From the IMG/VR virus record IMGVR_UViG_3300036852_000313, positions 1 through 52,228 of that record: a DNA stretch of 52,228 nt. The stretch is one strand, 5' to 3'. Origin of the DNA: a virus (Duplodnaviria; Caudoviricetes). A program made the translations under genes and the position numbers. The notes under the pieces are model-generated. The model was not told the DNA's origin. It saw only the letters and a list, made by a program, of their open reading frames with translations, and did not search any database. This document shows positions 2,104 through 10,883 of this stretch, piece after piece; positions within the stretch are counted from its first letter, which is position 1; each line of letters begins with the position of its first letter.

Positions 2104-2265
2104 TGCCAGAGCGTTTCTCAACTCCCGCTGATTGCGAACGCACAAGCTCACAGCTCGGAGACGCAGGGTTTCAACCGACTCAGCGCCATCGTCGAACAGA
2201 CTACTTATAGTTTTCGTGCCGGGTTCCTACGCCGTCTGTCAGGGCGGCACAGCAAATAGCGCGCG

Positions 2266-2784
2266 CTACTTGCCCTCGCCGAACGCCGCTACGCGACTCA
2301 CTTCGTTGTCTATCACCGGCCCCTGCCCATCGTCGCGCATCACCACGGCGCCGTCACGCTTCCGTTTCTTCGTCGTGATGTACACATCGCAAGGCGAGCC
2401 AGCGACGCTGTTCAACTGCTCGACGAGTTCTTCGGGCGAGCTTGCCGTCATGCGCTTCGCCGTCTTGCCCTCTGGCGTCGTCGTGTCCTCGGCCAGCCCA
2501 AACGCGACCGCGACCGCTGTCGCCTGCTGGCGTCCAATCTCGACGGACTTATCCGAGTTTGGATTCTCTACCGTGATCTGAAAGCGCCGATCGCGCTCAT
2601 ACGTCTTGCCGTCTTTCTTGCTCGTGAAGCCCGCGAACGGAATGCGGACGCCCTTCCAGCCAGAATCGTTCTGCGCGATCTCGGCGCCCGTTTGCAGCGT
2701 CGTGCCATACCAGCCCGCAGGCATCAAAAAAACCGGCTTGGCGTTGAGGTCGTCGGTCGGAATTGGGATGTTGAAGTCTGTCAT
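2266..2784 (-). CDS. Putative single-stranded DNA-binding protein (DUF669-like)
   Basis: MPAGWY..T motif, C-terminal DNEVSRV, directly downstream of the Sak4-like ATPase. Confidence 0.55.
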   Translation of the reverse strand: MTDFNIPIPTDDLNAKPVFLMPAGWYGTTLQTGAEIAQNDSGWKGVRIPFAGFTSKKDGKTYERDRRFQITVENPNSDKSVEIGRQQATAVAVAFGLAEDTTTPEGKTAKRMTASSPEELVEQLNSVAGSPCDVYITTKKRKRDGAVVMRDDGQGPVIDNEVSRVAAFGEGK

Positions 2785-3569
2785 TTCGGTGTCTCCGCCG
2801 CGCGTGGCGGCTCGTCGAGTGAGTTGAACAACGCTTGCATCGTGTTTTCGATCTGCGCAATATTCACGCCCGGTTTAAATGTCACGCTGTGCTTTGCTGG
2901 GCGCACGCTGTCAGCTTGCGCCGTGACATACCACTTGCGGGCAGGCCCGAACCCGAGCGGGCTTGTGTACAACCAAATGTCGAACGCTGAGTGAATGCGT
3001 TGCCGAATGGCGCTGCACATCACCGGCAGCATTTGATCGTCAAACTGCCACTCCTGCTTGTTTTTGTCGCCGAAGCTGGGACGGCGCGCGGCGGCACCTG
3101 CACCTTCCAGCTCGCGCATTTGCGCGTGAAACACGCACACAACAGTCTTGCCTTTGCTGGCGATGCGGCGCAGCTCCGTTACCAGCGCCTTGATTTGCTG
3201 GTCGTGGCCTGTGTACGCACGTCCGTGCCCCACGTCGCCAGGATCGTTCGTTGCGTGAACCTTGAGCACTTCGTGCATCGCGAGGTCGCTTGCTTCGCTC
3301 GCGGTATCAAGCACCACGAATTGCGAGTCGTCTTTGTAACGCGCGTCGAGCCACGCGAACAACCGCGTCAGTCCATCGGCGTTGAATTGGTTGATGTGTG
3401 GGCGCCAATCAAGATCGGCGAACAGCGTTACCCCATCGGTGCCGTAGAAGCTCGCTTCCTTTGGGTCTGTCAACGCGACAGCGGTTTTGCCGAGCGCGCG
3501 TGCGCTCCGCGCGAAGTGTGACTTGCCCGTGCCGGGAATCCCGGTAACGCCGATCAGATGTGCAGTCAT
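2781..3569 (-). CDS. AAA_24 / Sak4-like recombination ATPase
   Basis: Walker A GIPGTGKS, Walker B VVLDTAS, VVCVFH, AFDIWLY. Confidence 0.8.
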   Translation of the reverse strand: MTAHLIGVTGIPGTGKSHFARSARALGKTAVALTDPKEASFYGTDGVTLFADLDWRPHINQFNADGLTRLFAWLDARYKDDSQFVVLDTASEASDLAMHEVLKVHATNDPGDVGHGRAYTGHDQQIKALVTELRRIASKGKTVVCVFHAQMRELEGAGAAARRPSFGDKNKQEWQFDDQMLPVMCSAIRQRIHSAFDIWLYTSPLGFGPARKWYVTAQADSVRPAKHSVTFKPGVNIAQIENTMQALFNSLDEPPRAAETPK

Positions 3570-5278: not shown

Positions 5279-5559
5279 GGCGTTGGCTCCTGTTTGATTG
5301 AAAGGGTTCGGCAAGTTGTGGACCAGAGTCGTGCGCCTGCCACTTGATCGCAACACACATGCACACGTCCTTTAATGATGATTGTGGCCTTACGCGCACA
5401 TGGTTTCCAGCCATGCCACGGATTGCGGTCGCGCTTGTACATCCATGCGCGTAGCGCGCGCAACTCCTGGGCCAACGTGACCACGCGCGCCTGCGCGCGC
5501 GGCTTCTTCGGTATCCACACGTCGCCGCCGAACAGGGACGGATGGGCGGCGCACTTCAT
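5260..5559 (-). CDS. Hypothetical protein
   Basis: ATG overlapping upstream TGA. Confidence 0.4.
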   Translation of the reverse strand: MKCAAHPSLFGGDVWIPKKPRAQARVVTLAQELRALRAWMYKRDRNPWHGWKPCARKATIIIKGRVHVCCDQVAGARLWSTTCRTLSIKQEPTPCTATK

Positions 5560-5747
5560 GGCGTGGTCTCGCCATAGACGCGATTTAGCGCCACGCACAA
5601 TCGCGGTGCGCGTGAACGCGCCTTCGGGTCGCTTTCCTTGCTGGGCGTAGCCGCTACGCGCATTTCGCCGCACACCACAACGTACTGCGACAGATTGATG
5701 CTGTACACAACCCGCCAGGCGTCTGGCGTCGGTGCGAGTGTGATCAT
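5556..5747 (-). CDS. Hypothetical protein
   Basis: MITLAPTPDAWRVVYS... 63 aa; ATGA overlaps. Confidence 0.45.
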   Translation of the reverse strand: MITLAPTPDAWRVVYSINLSQYVVVCGEMRVAATPSKESDPKARSRAPRLCVALNRVYGETTP

Positions 5748-6634
5748 TGACGAACTTCTCCGGTTTCCAACAGGTGAATGAGGCGCGCTGTCAGGTTTTG
5801 ACGTGCGGCGTTCCATGCGGCGTCTGCTGCGGCGTTCGCTGCGGCGTTCGCTGCGGCGGCCCGTGTGGCGTCCCATGCGGCGTCTCCTGTGGCGTCCCAT
5901 GCGGCGGCCCGTGCGGCGTCTCCTGCGGCGGCCGCTGCGGCGGCGGCGGCCCTTGCGGCGCTCCATGCGGCGTCTGCTGCGGCGGCCCGTGCGGCGTCTC
6001 CTGCGGCGGCCGCTGCGGCGGCGGCGGCCCGTGTGGCGTCCCATGCGGCGTCCCCCCATGCGGCCCGTGCGGCGGCCCGTGCGGCGTCTCCTGCGGCGGC
6101 CGCTGCGGCGGCGGCGGCCCTTGCGGCGTCCCATGCGGCGTCCTCCCATGCGGCCCGTGTGGCGGCCGCTGCGGCGTCCCATGCGGCGTCTCCTGCGGCG
6201 TTAAGGAAGATGTGATTTACCTTGCCTTCCGCGAATGCTTCGATGGCTTCGATGCACTTCCGCATACGGTCGTCGTTCGGACGTTTGCGCTCAAAGAAAG
6301 GCAGCACGTCACGCGCGCAGGATGCGGCGAACAGGTGCACGGTGCGATCGTTCCAATGAGCGCAACGACGGAGCAGCCGAGCCGACGCGACGACAGTTTT
6401 ATTCTTGTCGCGGATGGACTCGCCACGCACTTCAACAATATAGATCGTCGGGCCGAGCCAGGTTATGAGATCGTGCGGTTCGCAAACGTGATAGCCACGC
6501 ACGCAAGGCTTGATGTTATCTAGCCTAGGCATCCACTTACCTGGCCTCTTGCCCGATGGCAGGCACCAGCGACCAGTTCCGCCGTGGTGCGCAGAACCAT
6601 CTTCACCGAGCACTTTGTAAAGTATGTCACTCAT
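5744..6634 (-). CDS. Phage protein with AAWDAARAAA low-complexity repeat
   Basis: Globular N-terminus (PCVRGYHVC..DLITW; LFAASCARDVLP), then Ala/Trp/Asp repeats. Confidence 0.8.
   Translation of the reverse strand: MSDILYKVLGEDGSAHHGGTGRWCLPSGKRPGKWMPRLDNIKPCVRGYHVCEPHDLITWLGPTIYIVEVRGESIRDKNKTVVASARLLRRCAHWNDRTVHLFAASCARDVLPFFERKRPNDDRMRKCIEAIEAFAEGKVNHIFLNAAGDAAWDAAAAATRAAWEDAAWDAARAAAAAAAAAGDAARAAARAAWGDAAWDATRAAAAAAAAAGDAARAAAADAAWSAARAAAAAAAAAGDAARAAAWDATGDAAWDATRAAAANAAANAAADAAWNAARQNLTARLIHLLETGEVRQ
5803..6200. repeat. Degenerate tandem coding repeat (gcggcgtcccat / gcggcggccc units)
   Basis: Directly visible; encodes AAWDA/AAGDA/AARAA. Confidence 0.9.
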
Positions 6635-7113
6635 AGCCACGCCTGCCGCAACGCATAGCCGCCGTCCTTGTGCCAGTGCGCCACATAGCCCACCTCATAT
6701 GGACGCTTGCCACCGTTTGTGTGCGGCGTGTAGTCGTAGTCGCCGTTGCTGTGGTCATTGCTTTGGCATCGTTCGCCAACGCACGGTACGCCGTCCGGCC
6801 AGAGCGCGCGTCCCAGCTCATACACGAGCGCGAATCCCATATCCATGCCGCACCCGCCAATCTTGACGCCACCTCGGTCGCGGTCGAAACGCCTGTCGAG
6901 TGCACGCGCGACTGCCCAGCCAATCGCATACGGCACTGTGCGCGTTTCGTCGTGCTCAATGCGCGGCGCACAAATCACTAGCTCAATCGTGCGCTGCATT
7001 CCGCTCCGGCTCACATGGCGCAAGGTCGTATGCACCGTGTCACCAGGCTTGAGCCATTCACGCAACTTCGCTTGCGCTTCCGCGCGCTCGGTCTTGCTCA
7101 CTCTGTCACTCAT
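6631..7113 (-). CDS. Hypothetical phage protein
   Basis: LRHVSRSGMQRTI...GGCGMDMGFALVYEL motifs; GGAGG RBS. Confidence 0.8.
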   Translation of the reverse strand: MSDRVSKTERAEAQAKLREWLKPGDTVHTTLRHVSRSGMQRTIELVICAPRIEHDETRTVPYAIGWAVARALDRRFDRDRGGVKIGGCGMDMGFALVYELGRALWPDGVPCVGERCQSNDHSNGDYDYTPHTNGGKRPYEVGYVAHWHKDGGYALRQAWL

Positions 7114-7314
7114 CTATATATCCTCCAAGCTACTCGTTAACTGGTGCATTCGCTCTTGTGCTTCGTTCACCGCATAGCGTGCATCAGATACGCTTGAATA
7201 GCTCGGTTTGCCAACAATGAAATTAGCGATACACGCCAATACTGTTTGCACATACTGCGCATTTCGGCGCATTGCTTCCATGTTAGGTGTTACATACTTG
7301 TCATCGTCACTCAT
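7114..7314 (-). CDS. Hypothetical protein
   Basis: 66 aa, preceded by hairpin copy 7. Confidence 0.7.
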   Translation of the reverse strand: MSDDDKYVTPNMEAMRRNAQYVQTVLACIANFIVGKPSYSSVSDARYAVNEAQERMHQLTSSLEDI

Positions 7315-7315
7315 T

Positions 7316-7349
7316 GCCGTCGCTCCAAAGGTTTGAGTTTGGGACTAGC
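7316..7349 (-). promoter_or_regulatory. SD-sequestering hairpin repeat, copy 7
   Basis: GCT-A-GTC-CCAAA-ctcaaacc-TTTGG-AGC-GAC-GGC-a-ATG. Confidence 0.75.
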
Positions 7350-7512
7350 CTTTTTGTGCAAACACTGCGGTTGGTACATTACCGTTGAGATACGCGCAGC
7401 GCCTTGCGGCACTTTCGCGGTCTGTGTGGTCTGAATCGCTGTGCCACGCACCGCGTGGATCATAAAAGCCTACTGTCCACAGCTCCGGCTCACTTCGCAC
7501 GTATACCCACAT
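7345..7512 (-). CDS. Small phage protein (55 aa, not in ORF track)
   Basis: MWVYVRSEPELWTVGFYDPRGAWHSDSDH...AARRCAYLNG; GGAGG RBS; its TAG stop lies inside hairpin copy 7. Confidence 0.75.
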   Translation of the reverse strand: MWVYVRSEPELWTVGFYDPRGAWHSDSDHTDRESAARRCAYLNGNVPTAVFAQKG

Positions 7513-7543
7513 CCTTTAATCCTCCAATTGAATGGGGACTAGC
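7513..7543 (-). promoter_or_regulatory. Hairpin repeat, copy 6 (degenerate)
   Basis: GCTAGTCCCCATTCAATTGGAGGATTAAAGG-ATG. Confidence 0.55.
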
Positions 7544-7553
7544 TTAACTGCGC

Positions 7554-7799
7554 TCACTCAATCTGCATCACTATCGTACATGCCGCAATATCGACTGGCC
7601 TGCCCGGCGTATCAAACTCCGCCGCAACTTGTGCGCCGTCCTGAATCACGACGTGACGCGCGCTTGCGTCATAGCGCACACGCGCACGGCACTCGTTTGC
7701 ATAAATCAATGTGCCTGTGCGCCGTCGCGTGCCGTCGTCGTCGAGCAGCGCGAATCGTGCACCGCTCGGTAGCGTCCACAGCTCGACAGTCGCGTTCAT
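7554..7799 (-). CDS. Hypothetical protein
   Basis: 81 aa; ATGA overlap. Confidence 0.65.
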   Translation of the reverse strand: MNATVELWTLPSGARFALLDDDGTRRRTGTLIYANECRARVRYDASARHVVIQDGAQVAAEFDTPGRPVDIAACTIVMQIE

Positions 7800-8380
7800 G
7801 TTTCCTTCATGTGCTGGTTATCCTGCGGGCAGATTGGCGCGCCCGGCCCGTCCAACCAGACGCGCGTCACGCGCGCCACGTAACCACAACTCCTACACGT
7901 CACCTTCACGAGTCGCGCGCCCTGTGCTTTCGGCAAACTGTGTGCGTCCAGTGCCGCATGCGGCCACGGCCCAAGCTCAGCGTTTAAACGTTCTAGCACC
8001 GCGCGCAGTTCTGAGCCTGCACACTGCGAGCGCGCTGGGCCAACGCTCAGGCCGATGCGCTCGCACGCGCGCACAAACGCTCGTTTGTGGCCCGTGCCTG
8101 GCGGCATGCACGCGTGCACCATCTCGTGACACAGTGTGTCTAGCGCCGCAATGGCGTCCTCGTGCAGCGGACTCACAAAGATGTGCGGCGCGCCGTCCAT
8201 CGAGTGCGCTCCGGCCCAGCACTGCCCCACCGTGGCGCCACGTTTGCCACGTAGCCCACCACGACTCGGGAACCCGACGCTTACGTGTATGTGCTCTGGC
8301 AGCGCGAGCGTTTCCGCCTCGAAACGTGCGCGCAGCGCCACAATGGCGCGCGTCAACCAGGCTTCGCGTGTGTCACTCAT
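7796..8380 (-). CDS. SprT-like HExxH metalloprotease with C-terminal Zn ribbon
   Basis: GQCW, TLCHEMVHA, GHKRAF, CRSCGY...PICP. Confidence 0.8.
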   Translation of the reverse strand: MSDTREAWLTRAIVALRARFEAETLALPEHIHVSVGFPSRGGLRGKRGATVGQCWAGAHSMDGAPHIFVSPLHEDAIAALDTLCHEMVHACMPPGTGHKRAFVRACERIGLSVGPARSQCAGSELRAVLERLNAELGPWPHAALDAHSLPKAQGARLVKVTCRSCGYVARVTRVWLDGPGAPICPQDNQHMKET

Positions 8381-8660
8381 AGACATTGCACGCACAACCA
8401 ATCTGCCCGCAATCGCGACAGTATGCACTCGGATTAAGCGGTATCACGTCGTCAGCATCTACGCTGTGCTTCCGGTCGTCTCCAATCATCACGCACACGA
8501 CACGGCCAGTGCGCACTTCGTAGCCAGACCATTCCGTGTCCTCGTCTGGCTCTGTCTCCCAGCCCAGCACATAGAACGCTACGCCGTCGTAGCCACGCAC
8601 GGCGTATGCGTCGTGCGGGAAAGCTTGCTCGTCGGGTTCGTAATGCGTGCGGTTATACAT
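8373..8660 (-). CDS. Acidic hypothetical protein
   Basis: MYNRTHYEPD...YCRDCGQIGC; follows hairpin copy 5. Confidence 0.75.
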   Translation of the reverse strand: MYNRTHYEPDEQAFPHDAYAVRGYDGVAFYVLGWETEPDEDTEWSGYEVRTGRVVCVMIGDDRKHSVDADDVIPLNPSAYCRDCGQIGCACNVYE

Positions 8661-8661
8661 C

Positions 8662-8693
8662 GCTGTCACTCCGGTTTGGGTGTCGGGACTAGC
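8662..8693 (-). promoter_or_regulatory. SD-sequestering hairpin repeat, copy 5
   Basis: GCT-A-GTC-CCG-acacccaaac-CGG-AGT-GAC-AGC-g-ATG. Confidence 0.8.
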
Positions 8694-8705
8694 GTATGGC
8701 TTGCT

Positions 8706-8765
8706 GACCTCATCAGTCGTGGCAGTCACCACGAGACGACGCGTGACTCGCGCGTCGTTTCGGTC
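8706..8765 (-). ncRNA. Type II hammerhead ribozyme HH1 (predicted cut between 8735 and 8734)
   Basis: GACC-GAAA-CGACGCG-cgagtca-CGCGTCG-TC^TCGTGG-tgactg-CCACGA-CTGATGA-GGTC: full CUGAUGA/GAAA/GUC core with three perfect stems. Confidence 0.92.
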
Positions 8766-8948
8766 TTAGACTATAGTTCCCCAATCCGGGTCCAGATCGT
8801 AAGCGCTTACCCAACGACAAGATGCGTCCTCATACTCGACATATGCGCGGTTATGCTCTTCGTCTATCTCCAGCACGACAACAAATGCCGTTACGTCTCC
8901 GTTGTCGTATTCAAGCTCCTGCCCGATGTACATGTCTGAGCATTTCAT
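8766..8948 (-). CDS. Small acidic hypothetical protein
   Basis: MKCSDMYIGQELEYDNGD...; follows hairpin copy 4; stop abuts HH1. Confidence 0.7.
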   Translation of the reverse strand: MKCSDMYIGQELEYDNGDVTAFVVVLEIDEEHNRAYVEYEDASCRWVSAYDLDPDWGTIV

Positions 8949-8951
8949 TTG

Positions 8952-8988
8952 GCCGTCGCTCCGCGCTAGGTTAGCTGTCGGGACTAGC
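8952..8988 (-). promoter_or_regulatory. SD-sequestering hairpin repeat, copy 4
   Basis: GCT-A-GTC-CCG-acagctaacctagcg-CGG-AGC-GAC-GGC-caa-ATG. Confidence 0.8.
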
Positions 8989-9232
8989 ATTCTGTGTTTG
9001 ACGCAATGCTGCTCGTTGCATCCATCGCGTAGGCGTTCGCCTCTGCAACCAAGTCCGTTAGTGTCTGTTGTGAGCTGGGATAGAACAGCTCTACGCCCTC
9101 CTCGACAATAACGATGCGTCCGTTCTTGCTCCATATGTCGAGTGTGTTCGGCGTGCCTTGCACTGGCGTGCTTGCCATGTGCCGCCAACCTGACTCTATG
9201 AGCAGGTTTGTGAGTTGCTGGCCTCTGTCCAT
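8984..9232 (-). CDS. Hypothetical protein
   Basis: 82 aa; its TAG stop is inside hairpin copy 4. Confidence 0.7.
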   Translation of the reverse strand: MDRGQQLTNLLIESGWRHMASTPVQGTPNTLDIWSKNGRIVIVEEGVELFYPSSQQTLTDLVAEANAYAMDATSSIASNTEC

Positions 9233-9234
9233 TT

Positions 9235-9273
9235 GCTGTCACTCCGAGCTAGGGTTAGCCAATCGGGACTAGC
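9235..9273 (-). promoter_or_regulatory. SD-sequestering hairpin repeat, copy 3
   Basis: GCT-A-GTC-CCG-attggctaaccctagct-CGG-AGT-GAC-AGC-aa-ATG. Confidence 0.8.
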
Positions 9274-9275
9274 GC

Positions 9276-9509
9276 TTACTCGTACTGCTCATCAATCATC
9301 TTCGCGAGTGCTTCGTCTTTCGTGGCGAATGGGCCGAAAGGTTCGCCGTCTGGCAGGCATCCAGGAAAGCAGGCCCACCAGTACCAGCCAGCTTCGCTGG
9401 GCTCACCATCGTTGTCCAGCTCCAACTCACCACGCCTAGCGTAGAATATCTCTACGTCTGGCAGCGTGTGTGGGTCATTCTCGCGGCTAGGATCGCTGTA
9501 CGCTTGCAT
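9276..9509 (-). CDS. Acidic hypothetical phage protein
   Basis: MQAYSDPSRE..LPDVEIFY...GWYWWACFPGCLPDGEPFGPF. Confidence 0.75.
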   Translation of the reverse strand: MQAYSDPSRENDPHTLPDVEIFYARRGELELDNDGEPSEAGWYWWACFPGCLPDGEPFGPFATKDEALAKMIDEQYE

Positions 9510-9540
9510 GCTGTCACTCCGAGTTAGTGTCGGGACTAGC
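9510..9540 (-). promoter_or_regulatory. SD-sequestering hairpin repeat, copy 2
   Basis: GCT-A-GTC-CCGA-cactaac-TCGG-AGT-GAC-AGC-ATG. Confidence 0.8.
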
Positions 9541-9552
9541 GTATAACTTGCT

Positions 9553-9613
9553 GGCCTCATCGGCCGCGGCAGTCACCGCGGGACGACGCGCTACGTCGCG
9601 CGCCGTTTCGGCC
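9553..9613 (-). ncRNA. Type II hammerhead ribozyme HH2, U4C core variant (predicted cut between 9582 and 9581)
   Basis: GGCC-GAAA-CGGCGCGC-gacgta-GCGCGTCG-TC^CCGCGG-tgactg-CCGCGG-CCGATGA-GGCC; stems covary with HH1. Confidence 0.85.
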
Positions 9614-9822
9614 TATGCGTATGCTGGATCAATGACGCGTTGGATATCCTTAGCACAAGCAAGCGCTGCGAATTGTAACGCGACGTATAGCGAGCGCTCT
9701 GGCGAGCGCGCTGGAAACGCTAGTGCCATACGCCAAAGGCGGTCTGATGTGTGACACAATGCGCGCATTCTCTGCGCCATGCGCCGTTCTTGCTCTATGG
9801 TGTGTTGTGCGTTCGTGTGCAT
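9613..9822 (-). CDS. Hypothetical protein
   Basis: MHTNAQHTIEQERR...; follows hairpin copy 1; TAG overlaps HH2. Confidence 0.65.
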   Translation of the reverse strand: MHTNAQHTIEQERRMAQRMRALCHTSDRLWRMALAFPARSPERSLYVALQFAALACAKDIQRVIDPAYA

Positions 9823-9825
9823 TTT

Positions 9826-9863
9826 GCTGTCGCTCCGTAGGGGGTTAGCCAATCGGGACTAGC
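9826..9863 (-). promoter_or_regulatory. SD-sequestering hairpin repeat, copy 1
   Basis: GCT-A-GTC-CCG-attggctaacccccta-CGG-AGC-GAC-AGC-aaa-ATG. Confidence 0.8.
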
Positions 9864-9953
9864 GTAAGCACACACCGCGCAGGTTAAACACTGTTGCCCA
9901 TAGATAGTATCGGGTCAGTCCTGCGCCAGTGTATGCCTTGCGCTGCAACACAT

Positions 9954-9970
9954 AGCATGATATGTGCCAA
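9954..9970 (-). promoter_or_regulatory. Possible sigma-54 (-24/-12) promoter for the early operon
   Basis: TTGGCACATATCATGCT: GG and GC at sigma-54 spacing, ATGC instead of TTGC. Confidence 0.3.
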
Positions 9971-10338
9971 GCGCACTAACCGCGCGTTTCGGCCACTTGC
10001 GGTCGCATCGTATCACATTGACACACCGCAACCTGCGACGAATCGTGCAAATTGCGAGAGTGTGCAACGTAGTAGCCAGCTAACGTGCGTTTAGCTGGTT
10101 ACTCGCGTCGTGCTAACCGGCTAGGCGCGTTTATGGTGGTTAGCGTGTCGAAGTGACACGTTTGGTGCTGACCAGCCTGTTGGCGCTGCCCGGCGCTGCC
10201 ACATTGGCGCGCGCGTGCGCCATATTGGCGCGACCCCCACCATGCCCCTTGGCGCTGCGGCGCGCAGAACTACGCGTTCGCGCTAATGCGCGGCATATTT
10301 TTTCTGAACGGTCTAGCTCGCTTCGCGCGATGCGGCGT

Positions 10339-10734
10339 TCATTTCGCATATCTCCACGGCAGCCCTGTCCAGCGCACAAGCAAGGTGCGCGCACCGAGTT
10401 CGCCGCCGTAGCGCAAACCGCGCTCCGCGCTCCAAAACAGCACCGAGTCCTCGACGAGCACGTAGATGCCGACGATGGAGTCGCGCTGCACGCCGCTATC
10501 TTGTGCTCTGGTCCACACAATCCAATCAGTAAACGTGCTGTCTGAACGCAACTCGATGGCGCCAGCAACAACCGCGCTTCCGTCAGCGCCGAATTTCCAC
10601 GGCAGCGTGTCGCCCGCGACGTTGCGCAGCGTCCATGTACCTAGCGCGCTAGCGTCTGGCGCCTGATTGTAGCACCCAGCGGCGCACGAGAGCATGAACG
10701 CAAGGCTCGTGGTGCAGCGAGCTGCGCCGATCAC
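10339..10734 (-). CDS. Lipoprotein with lipocalin-like beta domain
   Basis: Hydrophobic leader ending AAGC, then ALGTWTLRNVAGDTLP...AGAIELRSDSTFT. Confidence 0.65.
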   Translation of the reverse strand: MIGAARCTTSLAFMLSCAAGCYNQAPDASALGTWTLRNVAGDTLPWKFGADGSAVVAGAIELRSDSTFTDWIVWTRAQDSGVQRDSIVGIYVLVEDSVLFWSAERGLRYGGELGARTLLVRWTGLPWRYAK

Positions 10735-10883
10735 TTCGCCTTCTTGCGTTTGCGTGGTTTTCGTGCTTTGCCAGCGACATGCAACGCAATGGCGACAGAC
10801 TGTTTTTGCGCGTAACCGCTGCGTTGCAGCTCGGCGATGTTCTCGCCAATGGTTTTGCGGGACTTGCCGCGTTTCAGTGGCAC
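10731..10883 (-). CDS. Small basic phage protein (50 aa, not in ORF track)
   Basis: VPLKRGKSRKTIGENIAEL..SGYAQKQSVAIAL, a recurrent phage motif; GTGA overlap. Confidence 0.7.
   Translation of the reverse strand: MPLKRGKSRKTIGENIAELQRSGYAQKQSVAIALHVAGKARKPRKRKKAK

What the first reader, a model, noticed from the sequence alone, without database searches (positions are those of the whole stretch)
7316..9863. Seven-copy structured RNA motif that hides the Shine-Dalgarno of small early genes
Seen: the consensus GCT-A-GTC-CC(G)-variable loop-(C)GG-AGY-GAC-RGC-N0-3-ATG occurs at 9863, 9540, 9273, 8988, 8693, 7543 (degenerate) and 7349. The arms pair (GCT/AGC or GGC wobble, GTC/GAC, CCG/CGG) with a bulged A and a 3-nt AGY bulge overlapping GGAG. 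Copy 7 covaries (CCAAA/TTTGG). Loops vary in sequence and length. Inference: a translational operator or protein-binding RNA motif that coordinately gates early genes. I do not recognise it as a named family.
Basis: partly seen in the sequence, partly recalled or inferred. Interest (0 to 1): 0.8.

Follow-up and report, generated by a model that had tools for sequence, protein, structure and literature searches.

The report
Repeated ribosome-site hairpin, phage early genes
A soil phage puts the same small RNA hairpin, which folds its ribosome-binding site into the stem, in front of six or seven of its first small genes; the same hairpin, with matching paired changes, occurs in an unrelated phage, so it is a real but still untested control element.

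Summary
GCTAGTCCC occurs exactly 7 times, all on the minus strand between 7341 and 9863. Each copy lies 31-41 nt before the ATG of a small minus-strand gene. Six copies are full hairpins; the one at 7543 keeps only the 5' half.

Relatives were found in one metagenome contig (L091, 4 copies), one IMG/VR record (G001, 3 copies) and L060 (1 copy). Across the 14 full copies, 113 of 113 pair cells form standard pairs. All 3 outer-helix pairs and one inner pair show changes on both sides. GUC/GAC, CC/GG, the bulged A and GGAGY never vary, though the search patterns required most of that core. Only 8 of 151 chance pattern hits (5%) pair in the outer helix.

GGAG lies 7-11 nt before the start codon in 14 of 14 copies, so it is the Shine-Dalgarno. 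No Rfam family matches the hairpin. G001 shares no detectable protein with the window.

Best reading, not tested: an RNA translational operator or gate. Two type II hammerhead-like elements directly precede two copies.

The scan has noted analogous repeated hairpins at ribosome sites in other phages, but my word search turned up none described with this motif.

The parts
9826..9863 (-). Hairpin copy 1, before g1 (ATG 9822-9820, 69 aa). This is the first gene of the leftward operon.
   Evidence: R1 scores it 37.3 bits. MFE fold -9.0 kcal/mol.
9510..9540 (-). Hairpin copy 2, before g2 (ATG 9509-9507, 77 aa). It starts 4 nt after hammerhead-like element HH2.
   Evidence: R1 42.3 bits. Folds.
9235..9273 (-). 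Hairpin copy 3, before g3 (ATG 9232-9230, 82 aa). The g2 stop TAA (9278-9276) lies 2 nt upstream.
   Evidence: R1 40.6 bits.
8952..8988 (-). Hairpin copy 4, before g4 (ATG 8948-8946, 60 aa). The g3 stop TAG (8986-8984) is inside the 5' arm.
   Evidence: R1 37.9 bits.
8662..8693 (-). Hairpin copy 5, before g5 (ATG 8660-8658, 95 aa). It starts 4 nt after hammerhead-like element HH1.
   Evidence: R1 40.0 bits. Folds.
7521..7543 (-). Degenerate copy before g8 (ATG 7512-7510, 55 aa). The 5' arm and GGAGG are kept; the 3' YGACRGC is lost; a second AAAGGA sits next to the ATG.
   Evidence: Not found by R1 at E<=10. It folds differently.
7316..7349 (-). Hairpin copy 7, before g9 (ATG 7314-7312, 66 aa). 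The inner helix is CCAAA/UUUGG. The g8 stop TAG (7347-7345) is inside the 5' arm.
   Evidence: R1 33.9 bits.
8698..8765 (-). HH1, a type II hammerhead-like element filling the g4-g5 gap. It has the canonical CUGAUGA (8716-8710), GAAA and GUC; the predicted cut follows C at 8735.
   Evidence: Rfam RF02276: 26.1 bits, E 0.033, below the gathering score of 37. Coordinates. The three-way junction appears in the MFE fold.
9545..9613 (-). HH2, a second type II hammerhead-like element filling the g1-g2 gap. Its core reads CCGAUGA (9563-9557), i.e. C where U4 is expected. Its stems differ from HH1 by paired changes.
   Evidence: Rfam RF02276: 21.8 bits, E 0.45..

Best explanation
It is a family of 26-39 nt RNA hairpins in the mRNA of the phage's first small genes.

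Anatomy, 5' to 3':
- a 3-bp outer helix of free, covarying sequence
- a bulged A
- an invariant GUC/GAC helix
- a 3-nt AGY bulge on the 3' strand
- CC/GG plus 0-3 further covarying pairs
- a loop of any sequence

The 3' arm is the ribosome-binding region itself. The two Gs of the Shine-Dalgarno GGAG are paired and its AG is in the bulge. The spacer down to the AUG (YGACNNN) is paired with the 5' arm. When folded, the element therefore blocks 30S binding, and translation of these genes depends on opening it.

The bulges and GUC/GAC stay fixed in two phage lineages without detectable shared proteins, while the neighbouring pairs covary. I therefore think the element is also a specific recognition site, an operator, for one trans-acting factor, phage or host, that switches this gene set together.

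Shown: the repeat, the structure, the covariation, and the position relative to Shine-Dalgarno and start codon. Inferred: the effect on translation and the existence of a factor. I put the factor at about 0.35 on its own.
For: - Seven exact 9-mers on one strand, far above chance.
- 113 of 113 pair cells are standard pairs in 14 copies. All 3 outer pairs plus one inner pair change on both sides. The covariation score is 0.288 against 0.143 for shuffles (0 of 500 reach it). Slid controls pair only 25-56%.
- Copies not constrained by my search patterns (L091b, c, d and G001b) pair as GGU/ACC, GGU/GCC, AGU/ACU and GGC/GCC.
- Negative control: 8 of 151 chance pattern hits pair fully in the outer helix.
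- GGAG lies 7-11 nt before ATG or GTG in 14 of 14 copies. Other genes of the window that show a purine-rich site carry GGAG or AAGGAGG about 5-8 nt before ATG.
- G001 has no tblastx hit to the window at E<1e-5 over 47.8 kb, yet it carries the same core.
- Whole-record model searches find copies only in short clusters: 6 in the window, 3 in G001.
- Precedents for phage factors that act at ribosome-binding regions of early or counter-defence mRNAs: the repressors Aca2 (PMC13551039) and RegA, and the nuclease RegB (PMC3014915).
Against: - There are no expression, probing or binding data, and no RNA run was listed.
- The invariance of AGUCC...GGAGYGAC is partly circular, because every search pattern and regex I used required it.
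- There are only about 3-4 independent compensatory events. L091 and G001 are syntenic relatives, and the window copies are paralogues.
- Single hairpins do not fold better than shuffles (z -0.24 to -2.57).
- No candidate factor was found. g1-g9 have no significant Pfam match (nothing better than E 0.038, all below the cut-offs) and, apart from g6, no PHROG match. There is no RegA or RegB homologue. No protein is shared with G001 or L091.
- A default-off ribosome site is odd for genes that should be expressed first.
Confidence: 0.45

Rival explanations
1. A purely cis-acting gate with no dedicated factor. The hairpin throttles initiation and/or couples each gene to translation of the gene before it: a ribosome that terminates in or next to the 5' arm melts the stem and frees the Shine-Dalgarno. 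It could also act as a temperature-sensitive stem.
For: - In the window the upstream stop codon lies inside the 5' arm (copies 8988 and 7349), 2 nt before it (9273) or 10 nt before it (7543). That is 4 of 7 copies.
- G001c also uses the hairpin's UAG as the upstream stop.
- Predicted stabilities of -5.4 to -12.8 kcal/mol are in a range that, from recalled work on MS2 coat-gene hairpins, lowers initiation.
Against: - Copy 9863 has no upstream gene. Copies 9540 and 8693 are separated from the upstream stop by a 68-69 nt hammerhead element.
- In the relatives the upstream stop is 16-55 nt away in L091a-d, L060 and G001a, going by my ORF lists. Only 1 of 8 relative copies, G001c, has a stop in or within 10 nt of the arm; for G001b the upstream gene was unclear.
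- Stability alone does not explain an invariant bulged A and GUC/GAC next to freely covarying pairs.
Confidence: 0.25
2. An mRNA processing or stability element. The hairpin is a nuclease recognition site or a protective stem that defines the 5' region of each cistron, working together with the hammerheads that cut the polycistronic RNA.
For: - Two copies start 4 nt after type II hammerhead-like elements that fill the whole intergenic gap.
- Hammerheads that flank single genes in prophages were proposed to cut long phage transcripts into gene-length mRNAs (PMC3088659, passages).
- T4 RegB cuts GG/AG in early Shine-Dalgarno sites (PMC3014915). Here the GG|AG junction sits exactly at the helix-bulge boundary.
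Against:
- There is no regB homologue, and the 3' context GGAGYGAC differs from the RegB consensus GGAGRAYARAA.
- According to that review, secondary structure protects against RegB.
- No hammerhead accompanies the copies in L091, G001 or L060.
Confidence: 0.12
3. Mainly a gene-cassette junction. A shared sequence at gene boundaries lets unrelated phages swap small early genes by recombination. On this reading the RNA fold is secondary.
For: - The same core occurs in phages without detectable shared proteins.
- L060 carries the hairpin in front of a homologue of window g10 (62% over 24 aa), and g10 has no hairpin in the window. Upstream, L060 has an ORF related to G001 (57% over 49 aa).
- PeSL cassettes of T4-type phages do this (PMC2839356, abstract).
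Against: - A recombination site needs sequence identity, not base pairing. The compensatory changes and G-U alternation argue for selection on the RNA fold.
- The identical stretches (7-9 nt) are very short for homologous recombination.
Confidence: 0.08
4. A DNA-level site, such as a promoter or an operator for a DNA-binding protein.
For: It is a repeated interrupted inverted repeat upstream of genes. The ESAS repeats of Cluster K phages were judged more likely to be DNA sites (PMC3203893).
Against: - The arms are asymmetric: a 1-nt bulge against a 3-nt bulge.
- U-A and U-G alternate (7 against 6 copies), which only pairs on one RNA strand.
- Loops vary from 4 to 17 nt.
- All copies have one orientation, at a fixed distance from start codons.
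- There is no sigma-70-like match at any copy.
- No ORF in the window is long enough for a single-subunit RNA polymerase; the longest are 750 and 675 aa.
Confidence: 0.03

Closest known systems
Start-associated sequences (SAS/ESAS) of Cluster K mycobacteriophages (PMC3203893; passages read)
   Same: - A short asymmetric repeat that contains the Shine-Dalgarno core GGAG.
- One orientation, a few nt before ATG starts of non-structural genes.
- The upstream stop codon sometimes lies inside the repeat.
- Shared by different gene families, rare elsewhere, function unknown.
   Different: - SAS is a fixed 13-mer (GGGATAGGAGCCC) with no demonstrated pairing. The window has 0 matches at up to 2 mismatches.
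- The ESAS inverted repeats do not covary and were read as DNA sites.
- Here the element is a covarying hairpin with the Shine-Dalgarno in its 3' arm.
Aca2/Aca1 RNA motifs of anti-CRISPR operons (PMC13551039; abstract and passages)
   Same: Conserved hairpins in 5' UTRs and between adjacent small phage genes. For Aca2, binding of a phage regulator blocks the ribosome-binding site.
   Different: - No Aca-like HTH gene was found among g1-g9 (no significant Pfam match; nothing better than E 0.038).
- The motif sequence and architecture are unrelated as far as I can tell from the text; I did not have those models.
- There are up to 7 copies in one operon here.
T4 RegA operators and RegB GGAG targets (PMC3014915; passages)
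   Same: One phage factor acts on the translation-initiation regions of many early mRNAs. RegB cuts inside GGAG Shine-Dalgarno sites.
   Different: - RegA sites are A+U-rich and unstructured.
- The RegB consensus is GG*AGRAYARAA, and structure protects against it.
- The window has no regA or regB homologue.
PeSL cassettes of T4-type phages (PMC2839356; abstract only)
   Same: Small repeated regulatory cassettes between small non-essential early genes, and a possible role in gene shuffling.
   Different: PeSLs are a sigma-70 promoter plus a terminator stem-loop. Here there is no promoter-like match at the copies and no U-tract, and the stem holds the Shine-Dalgarno.
Coat-protein operator hairpins of RNA phages (MS2, Qbeta) and RNA thermometers (ROSE, fourU); recalled, no call
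   Same: A small hairpin with a bulged A, or with bulges, that contains the ribosome-binding region of the controlled gene.
   Different: In those cases recognition or melting depends on the loop or on specific mismatches at a single gene. Here the loop is free in sequence and length, and the element is repeated before many genes.
Type II hammerheads flanking genes in prophages (PMC3088659; passages)
   Same: HH1 and HH2 have stems I and III closed and stem II open, sit between single phage genes, and have a loop I/3'-tail arrangement like the described pseudoknot class.
   Different: Both score below Rfam's gathering threshold, and HH2 has C at core position 4. In my paper searches I found no description of a hammerhead directly followed by a conserved Shine-Dalgarno hairpin.

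Membership tests
Any Rfam 15 family | Match at the family's gathering score | tested here: not met
   0 matches in the whole window at gathering scores. In E-value mode on 6500-10800 nothing overlaps a hairpin; there are only two sub-threshold hammerhead hits and 3 spurious ones.
SAS (Cluster K mycobacteriophages) | 13-nt consensus GGGATAGGAGCCC with up to 2 deviations | tested here: not met
   0 matches in the window at up to 2 mismatches.
SAS (Cluster K mycobacteriophages) | One orientation, a few nt upstream of start codons of non-structural genes, contains GGAG | tested here: met
   All 7 copies are on the minus strand. GGAG lies 7-11 nt before the start in 14 of 14 full copies. This shows it works like SAS; it does not show membership.
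PeSL | Strong sigma-70-like promoter plus terminator stem-loop | tested here: not met
   The promoter scan of 6500-10700 found 1 site (7615-7587), not at a copy. No terminator-like site coincides with a copy.
Aca2-type RNA operator | Co-encoded HTH (Aca) regulator in the same operon | tested here: inconclusive
No HTH family matched g1-g5 or g7-g9 in Pfam; the only matches were insignificant, E 0.038-0.29 and below the cut-offs. g6 had no Pfam match at E<=0.01. Small divergent HTH proteins can be missed.
T4 RegA regulon operator | Unstructured A+U-rich site and a regA gene | tested here: not met
   The site is G+C-rich and structured. PF01818 has no match in the window at E<=1.
T4 RegB target | GGAG in an early Shine-Dalgarno with an A-rich 3' context (GGAGRAYARAA) and a regB gene | tested here: not met
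   GGAG is present, but the context is GGAGYGAC. PF10715 has no match.
Hammerhead type II (the two neighbouring elements) | Core CUGAUGA, GAAA and a UH cleavage site; stems I and III closed, stem II open; Rfam gathering score | tested here: inconclusive
   HH1 has every core letter and all stems but scores 26.1 bits against a gathering score of 37. HH2 has CCGAUGA and scores 21.8 bits. Self-cleavage cannot be tested here.
K-turn | A 3-nt bulge followed by tandem sheared G-A pairs | tested here: not met
   After the AGY bulge the strands read GAC/GUC, which are Watson-Crick pairs and invariant in 14 of 14 copies. The K-turn definition is recalled.
CsrA/RsmA site | GGA presented in a hairpin loop | tested here: not met
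   GGA lies in the stem and bulge, not in the loop, and loops have no common sequence. The definition comes from the abstract of PMC13443453 (listing) and from recall.

The most novel reading that the evidence does not exclude
The hairpin is a portable translational operator. It is a self-contained ribosome-site cassette that moves between unrelated soil phages and is read by one sequence-specific factor, probably a host protein, since the phages share no detectable protein. In this phage it is combined with hammerhead ribozymes into 'cut-and-gate' junctions, so that each small early gene becomes its own mRNA with a standard, switchable leader. This would give a concrete job to phage hammerheads, whose function has stayed open.
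Probability: 0.2. Interest if true: 0.8.

Novelty: new variant of a known kind. Interest (0 to 1): 0.55.

Why it matters
Phage early genes (host take-over, counter-defence) are small, fast-evolving and hard to study, and how their dosage and timing are set after transcription is known for only a few model phages. A covarying hairpin that carries the ribosome-binding site, repeated before most of the first genes and shared by unrelated phages, is a compact and testable handle on that control. It marks the gene set it governs, it can be used as bait for its reader, and it could serve as a standard regulated ribosome-site part. Its direct junction with type II hammerheads offers a system for testing what phage hammerheads are for.

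Tried and rejected
Relatives by DNA similarity
- The region and 20 kb of the window gave no match in the GenBank phage collection.

Relatives by pattern
- GCTAGTCCC..GGAGYGAC in viral contigs gave 38 stretches. All were single copies, judged chance or unrelated.
- The stricter pattern in metagenome contigs gave 47 stretches, and only L091 and L060 were kept.
- L066 scored 38.3 bits with R1, but it lies inside a 546-aa ORF whose sequence looks by eye like a membrane phosphatase gene (no domain search was run), so I dropped it as a chance hit. It was among the 15 sequences used to build R1 and in the counts. The count was repeated without it.
- L061, L068 and L085 (25.9-27.7 bits) were left out: each is a single copy without supporting homology.
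- The GTAGTCCC pattern gave 30 stretches, of which 2 are G001.
No new member was found; these hits served as the negative control.

Relatives by protein
- g6 alone found none. Alignment A1 was too diverse for the tool.
- Alignment A2 found only relatives at 32-37% identity (L046-L048), which carry a different repeat.
- The G001 protein found only itself.
- Terminase relatives are short contigs without the early region.

Model and pattern searches in other genomes
- R1 found nothing in Arthrobacter phage Maureen, Microbacterium phage Shocker or G002, nor in 3 bacterial genomes (only 150 of several hundred to 2,600 candidates were scored per genome).
- A pattern scan of 151 genomes of one actinobacterial family gave 6 matches against 9 for the reversed control. 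The double hit in G070 does not pair.

Expression
- No RNA holder was listed.
- Contigs of two soil DNA runs cover the stretch, with no difference in any hairpin.

Candidate factor
- Pfam and PHROGs gave nothing significant for g1-g5 and g7-g9.
- An Atlas look-up of g1 gave only unnamed helical look-alikes below 0.8.
- There is no regA or regB homologue.
- GGAGYGAC occurs only twice on the + strand (22128 and 38473), far from the operon, so no nearby antisense copy stands out.

Ideas dropped
- K-turn, CsrA site and phage-RNA-polymerase promoter: see the membership table.
- A resemblance of GUAGUCC to a conserved 16S rRNA stretch (recalled) was dropped, because the covariation fixes a register that does not match that helix.
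- Supplementary files of the papers were not seen; the SAS/ESAS alignments in supplements could bear on the comparison.

Full report
SETTING

The window is a 52,228-base IMG/VR virus record, about 98% complete, with 58-63% G+C. It has no near relative in the GenBank phage collection.

Its right part encodes terminase, an SU10-type portal and a capsid protein on the + strand. The left ~10 kb is read on the minus strand. It begins with small ORFs and continues into a SprT-like protease (g6, 8380..7796; best cultured relatives are Arthrobacter and Microbacterium phages at about 45%). After that come a PD-(D/E)XK nuclease and a UDG/exonuclease. 'Early' is therefore an inference from layout. No RNA data exist, and the DNA is seen in two soil metagenome runs.

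THE OBSERVATION

GCTAGTCCC occurs exactly 7 times, always on the minus strand, at 9863, 9540, 9273, 8988, 8693, 7543 and 7349. None of 100 shuffles reach the observed count.

Read on the minus strand, six copies are GCU-A-GUC-CC(N)-loop-(N)GG-AGY-GAC-RGC, followed after 0-3 nt by the ATG of g1, g2, g3, g4, g5 and g9. The copy at 7543 (g8) keeps only the 5' arm and GGAGG, and has a second purine-rich site next to its ATG. The covariance model does not find it. g6 and g7 have no copy.

The intergenic space is completely used. It consists either of the hairpin alone, or of a 68-69 nt hammerhead-like element, 4 nt, and then the hairpin.

RELATIVES

Pattern scans mostly returned single chance hits. 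They also returned three true carriers:
- L091, a 3.8-kb metagenome contig with 4 copies.
- G001, a 47.8-kb IMG/VR record with 3 copies at 2169-3230.
- L060, a 1-kb contig with 1 copy.

L091 and G001 are syntenic relatives with roughly 55-97% identity over their longer tblastx matches, so three of their copies are orthologous pairs.

G001 has no tblastx hit to the window at E<1e-5. Looser hits are short noise.

L060 bridges the two groups. Its copy precedes a homologue of window g10, and its upstream ORF resembles a G001 ORF.

L066 first looked like a member, but it lies inside a long bacterial ORF and was dropped.

STRUCTURE

On the 14 full copies every one of 113 pair cells is a standard pair. 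The pairs behave as follows:
- Outer pair 1-39: G-C in 11 copies, A-U in 3.
- Outer pair 2-38: C-G in 8, G-C in 6.
- Outer pair 3-37: U-A in 7, U-G in 6, C-G in 1.
- Third inner pair, in the alignment: G-C in 6 copies and A-U in 1, with 7 copies gapped. Read by eye, four of the gapped copies (L091b, c, d and G001c) add U-A here, and three (G001a, G001b, L060) have only the two CC/GG pairs.
- GUC/GAC and CC/GG never vary.

Sliding the partner strand by 1-3 columns drops pairing to 25-56%. No shuffle reaches the covariation score.

The copies that my patterns did not constrain in the outer helix (L091b, c, d and G001b) are all paired. Among 151 chance pattern matches only 8 (5%) pair fully there.

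The alternation of U-A with U-G, the unequal bulges (A against AGY) and the single orientation place the structure on the sense RNA, not on duplex DNA.

Minimum-energy folds reproduce the helices, also in the context of the hammerheads.

Caveats:
- There are perhaps 3-4 independent compensatory events.
- The invariance of the core is partly imposed by how I searched. However, the model found no diverged copies in the window, L091 or G001.

RELATION TO TRANSLATION

GGAG is 7-11 nt before the start codon in 14 of 14 copies. Other genes of the window that show a purine-rich site carry GGAG or AAGGAGG about 5-8 nt before ATG. GGAG is therefore the Shine-Dalgarno.

Its GG is paired with CC, and its AG plus a pyrimidine form the 3-nt bulge. 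The spacer to the AUG is the 3' strand of the GUC/GAC and outer helices. Folded, the site is closed to the 30S subunit.

In 4 of 7 window copies the upstream stop codon lies in the 5' arm or within 10 nt of it, which would let a terminating ribosome open the stem. This does not hold for the first copy or for the two hammerhead junctions. It also fails for 7 of the 8 copies in relatives: the stop is 16-55 nt away in six, and the upstream gene of G001b was unclear.

MECHANISM

I commit to an RNA-level gate on translation initiation that is also a specific operator. The reason is the contrast between freely covarying pairs and the fixed bulged A, GUC/GAC and AGY in lineages that share no detectable protein.

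The factor is unknown. I found no RegA, RegB or HTH candidate. The lack of shared proteins points to a host factor rather than a phage one, but this is inference.

The rivals are a factor-free coupling or throttling stem, a processing or stability element tied to the hammerheads, a recombination junction, and a DNA site. They are weighed in their own sections.

COMPARISON WITH WHAT IS KNOWN

No Rfam family matches.

In kind the element is closest to the start-associated sequences of Cluster K mycobacteriophages. Both have GGAG inside a repeat just before the starts of non-structural genes, and the function is unknown. It fails their consensus, and unlike ESAS it covaries as RNA.

It works like the Aca2 RNA motifs and the RegA regulon in concept, and resembles PeSLs in distribution, without meeting their defining features.

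The scan's earlier notes list several analogous repeated hairpins next to ribosome sites in other phages. The class is therefore recurrent. My word search turned up none described with this sequence and architecture, that is, a Shine-Dalgarno inside a doubly bulged stem directly behind hammerheads.

VERDICT

This is a real, structured, previously undescribed RNA motif of a known general kind, with untested function. Interest is moderate to high. The motif is rare (4 contigs), but it is clean and experimentally approachable.

Noticed in passing
window 8698-8765 (-) and 9545-9613 (-): Two type II hammerhead-like elements fill the g4-g5 and g1-g2 gaps. HH1 has a full canonical core. HH2 has C at core position 4. 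Their stems I, II and III differ by paired changes, while loop I (UGACUG) and the 3' tail (CAGCAAG) are identical. Both score below Rfam's gathering score.
   Followed up: partly
L047 5949-5976, 6641-6668, 7591-7618 (same in L046 and L048): Distant relatives of g6 (37% identity) carry a different repeated start-site module, GATCTTGAAAGGATCACAC(A/C)ATG, three times, once directly before the g6 homologue. It is a 4-bp GATC/GATC stem with the purine-rich site in the loop and 3' arm. This is an analogous solution with an unrelated sequence.
   Followed up: no
window 9955-9969 (-): TGGCAC-N5-ATGC, spaced like a sigma-54 -24/-12 element (consensus recalled), lies about 90 nt upstream of the first hairpin. 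A loose version of the pattern occurs 8 times in the window, so this is weak.
   Followed up: partly
window 10278-10303 (+): A terminator-like hairpin with a T-run on the + strand lies inside the roughly 480-nt region upstream of the first hairpin. A 10061-10116 hairpin also gave a spurious miRNA hit. A small + strand transcript may end here.
   Followed up: no
window 5556-6182 (-): This ORF translates to a highly repetitive Arg/Gly-rich N-terminal half (RRRRSGRRRRRRTGRR-like units). It overlaps the ORF 5744..6640 on the same strand and several + strand ORFs. It may be a wrong-frame reading of a DNA repeat.
   Followed up: no
window 7114-7140 (-), just before g10 ATG 7113: The last codons of g9 read AGUAGCUUGGAGGAUAUAUAG before the g10 ATG. 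This shares UUGGAGGAU with the degenerate 7543 copy and looks like a further decayed hairpin. In L060 the g10 homologue has a full hairpin.
   Followed up: no
L066 1542-1576 (-): A perfect-looking hairpin match (38.3 bits) lies inside a 546-aa ORF that by eye resembles a membrane phosphatase gene. It shows that single high-scoring hits of this short model can be chance.
   Followed up: yes
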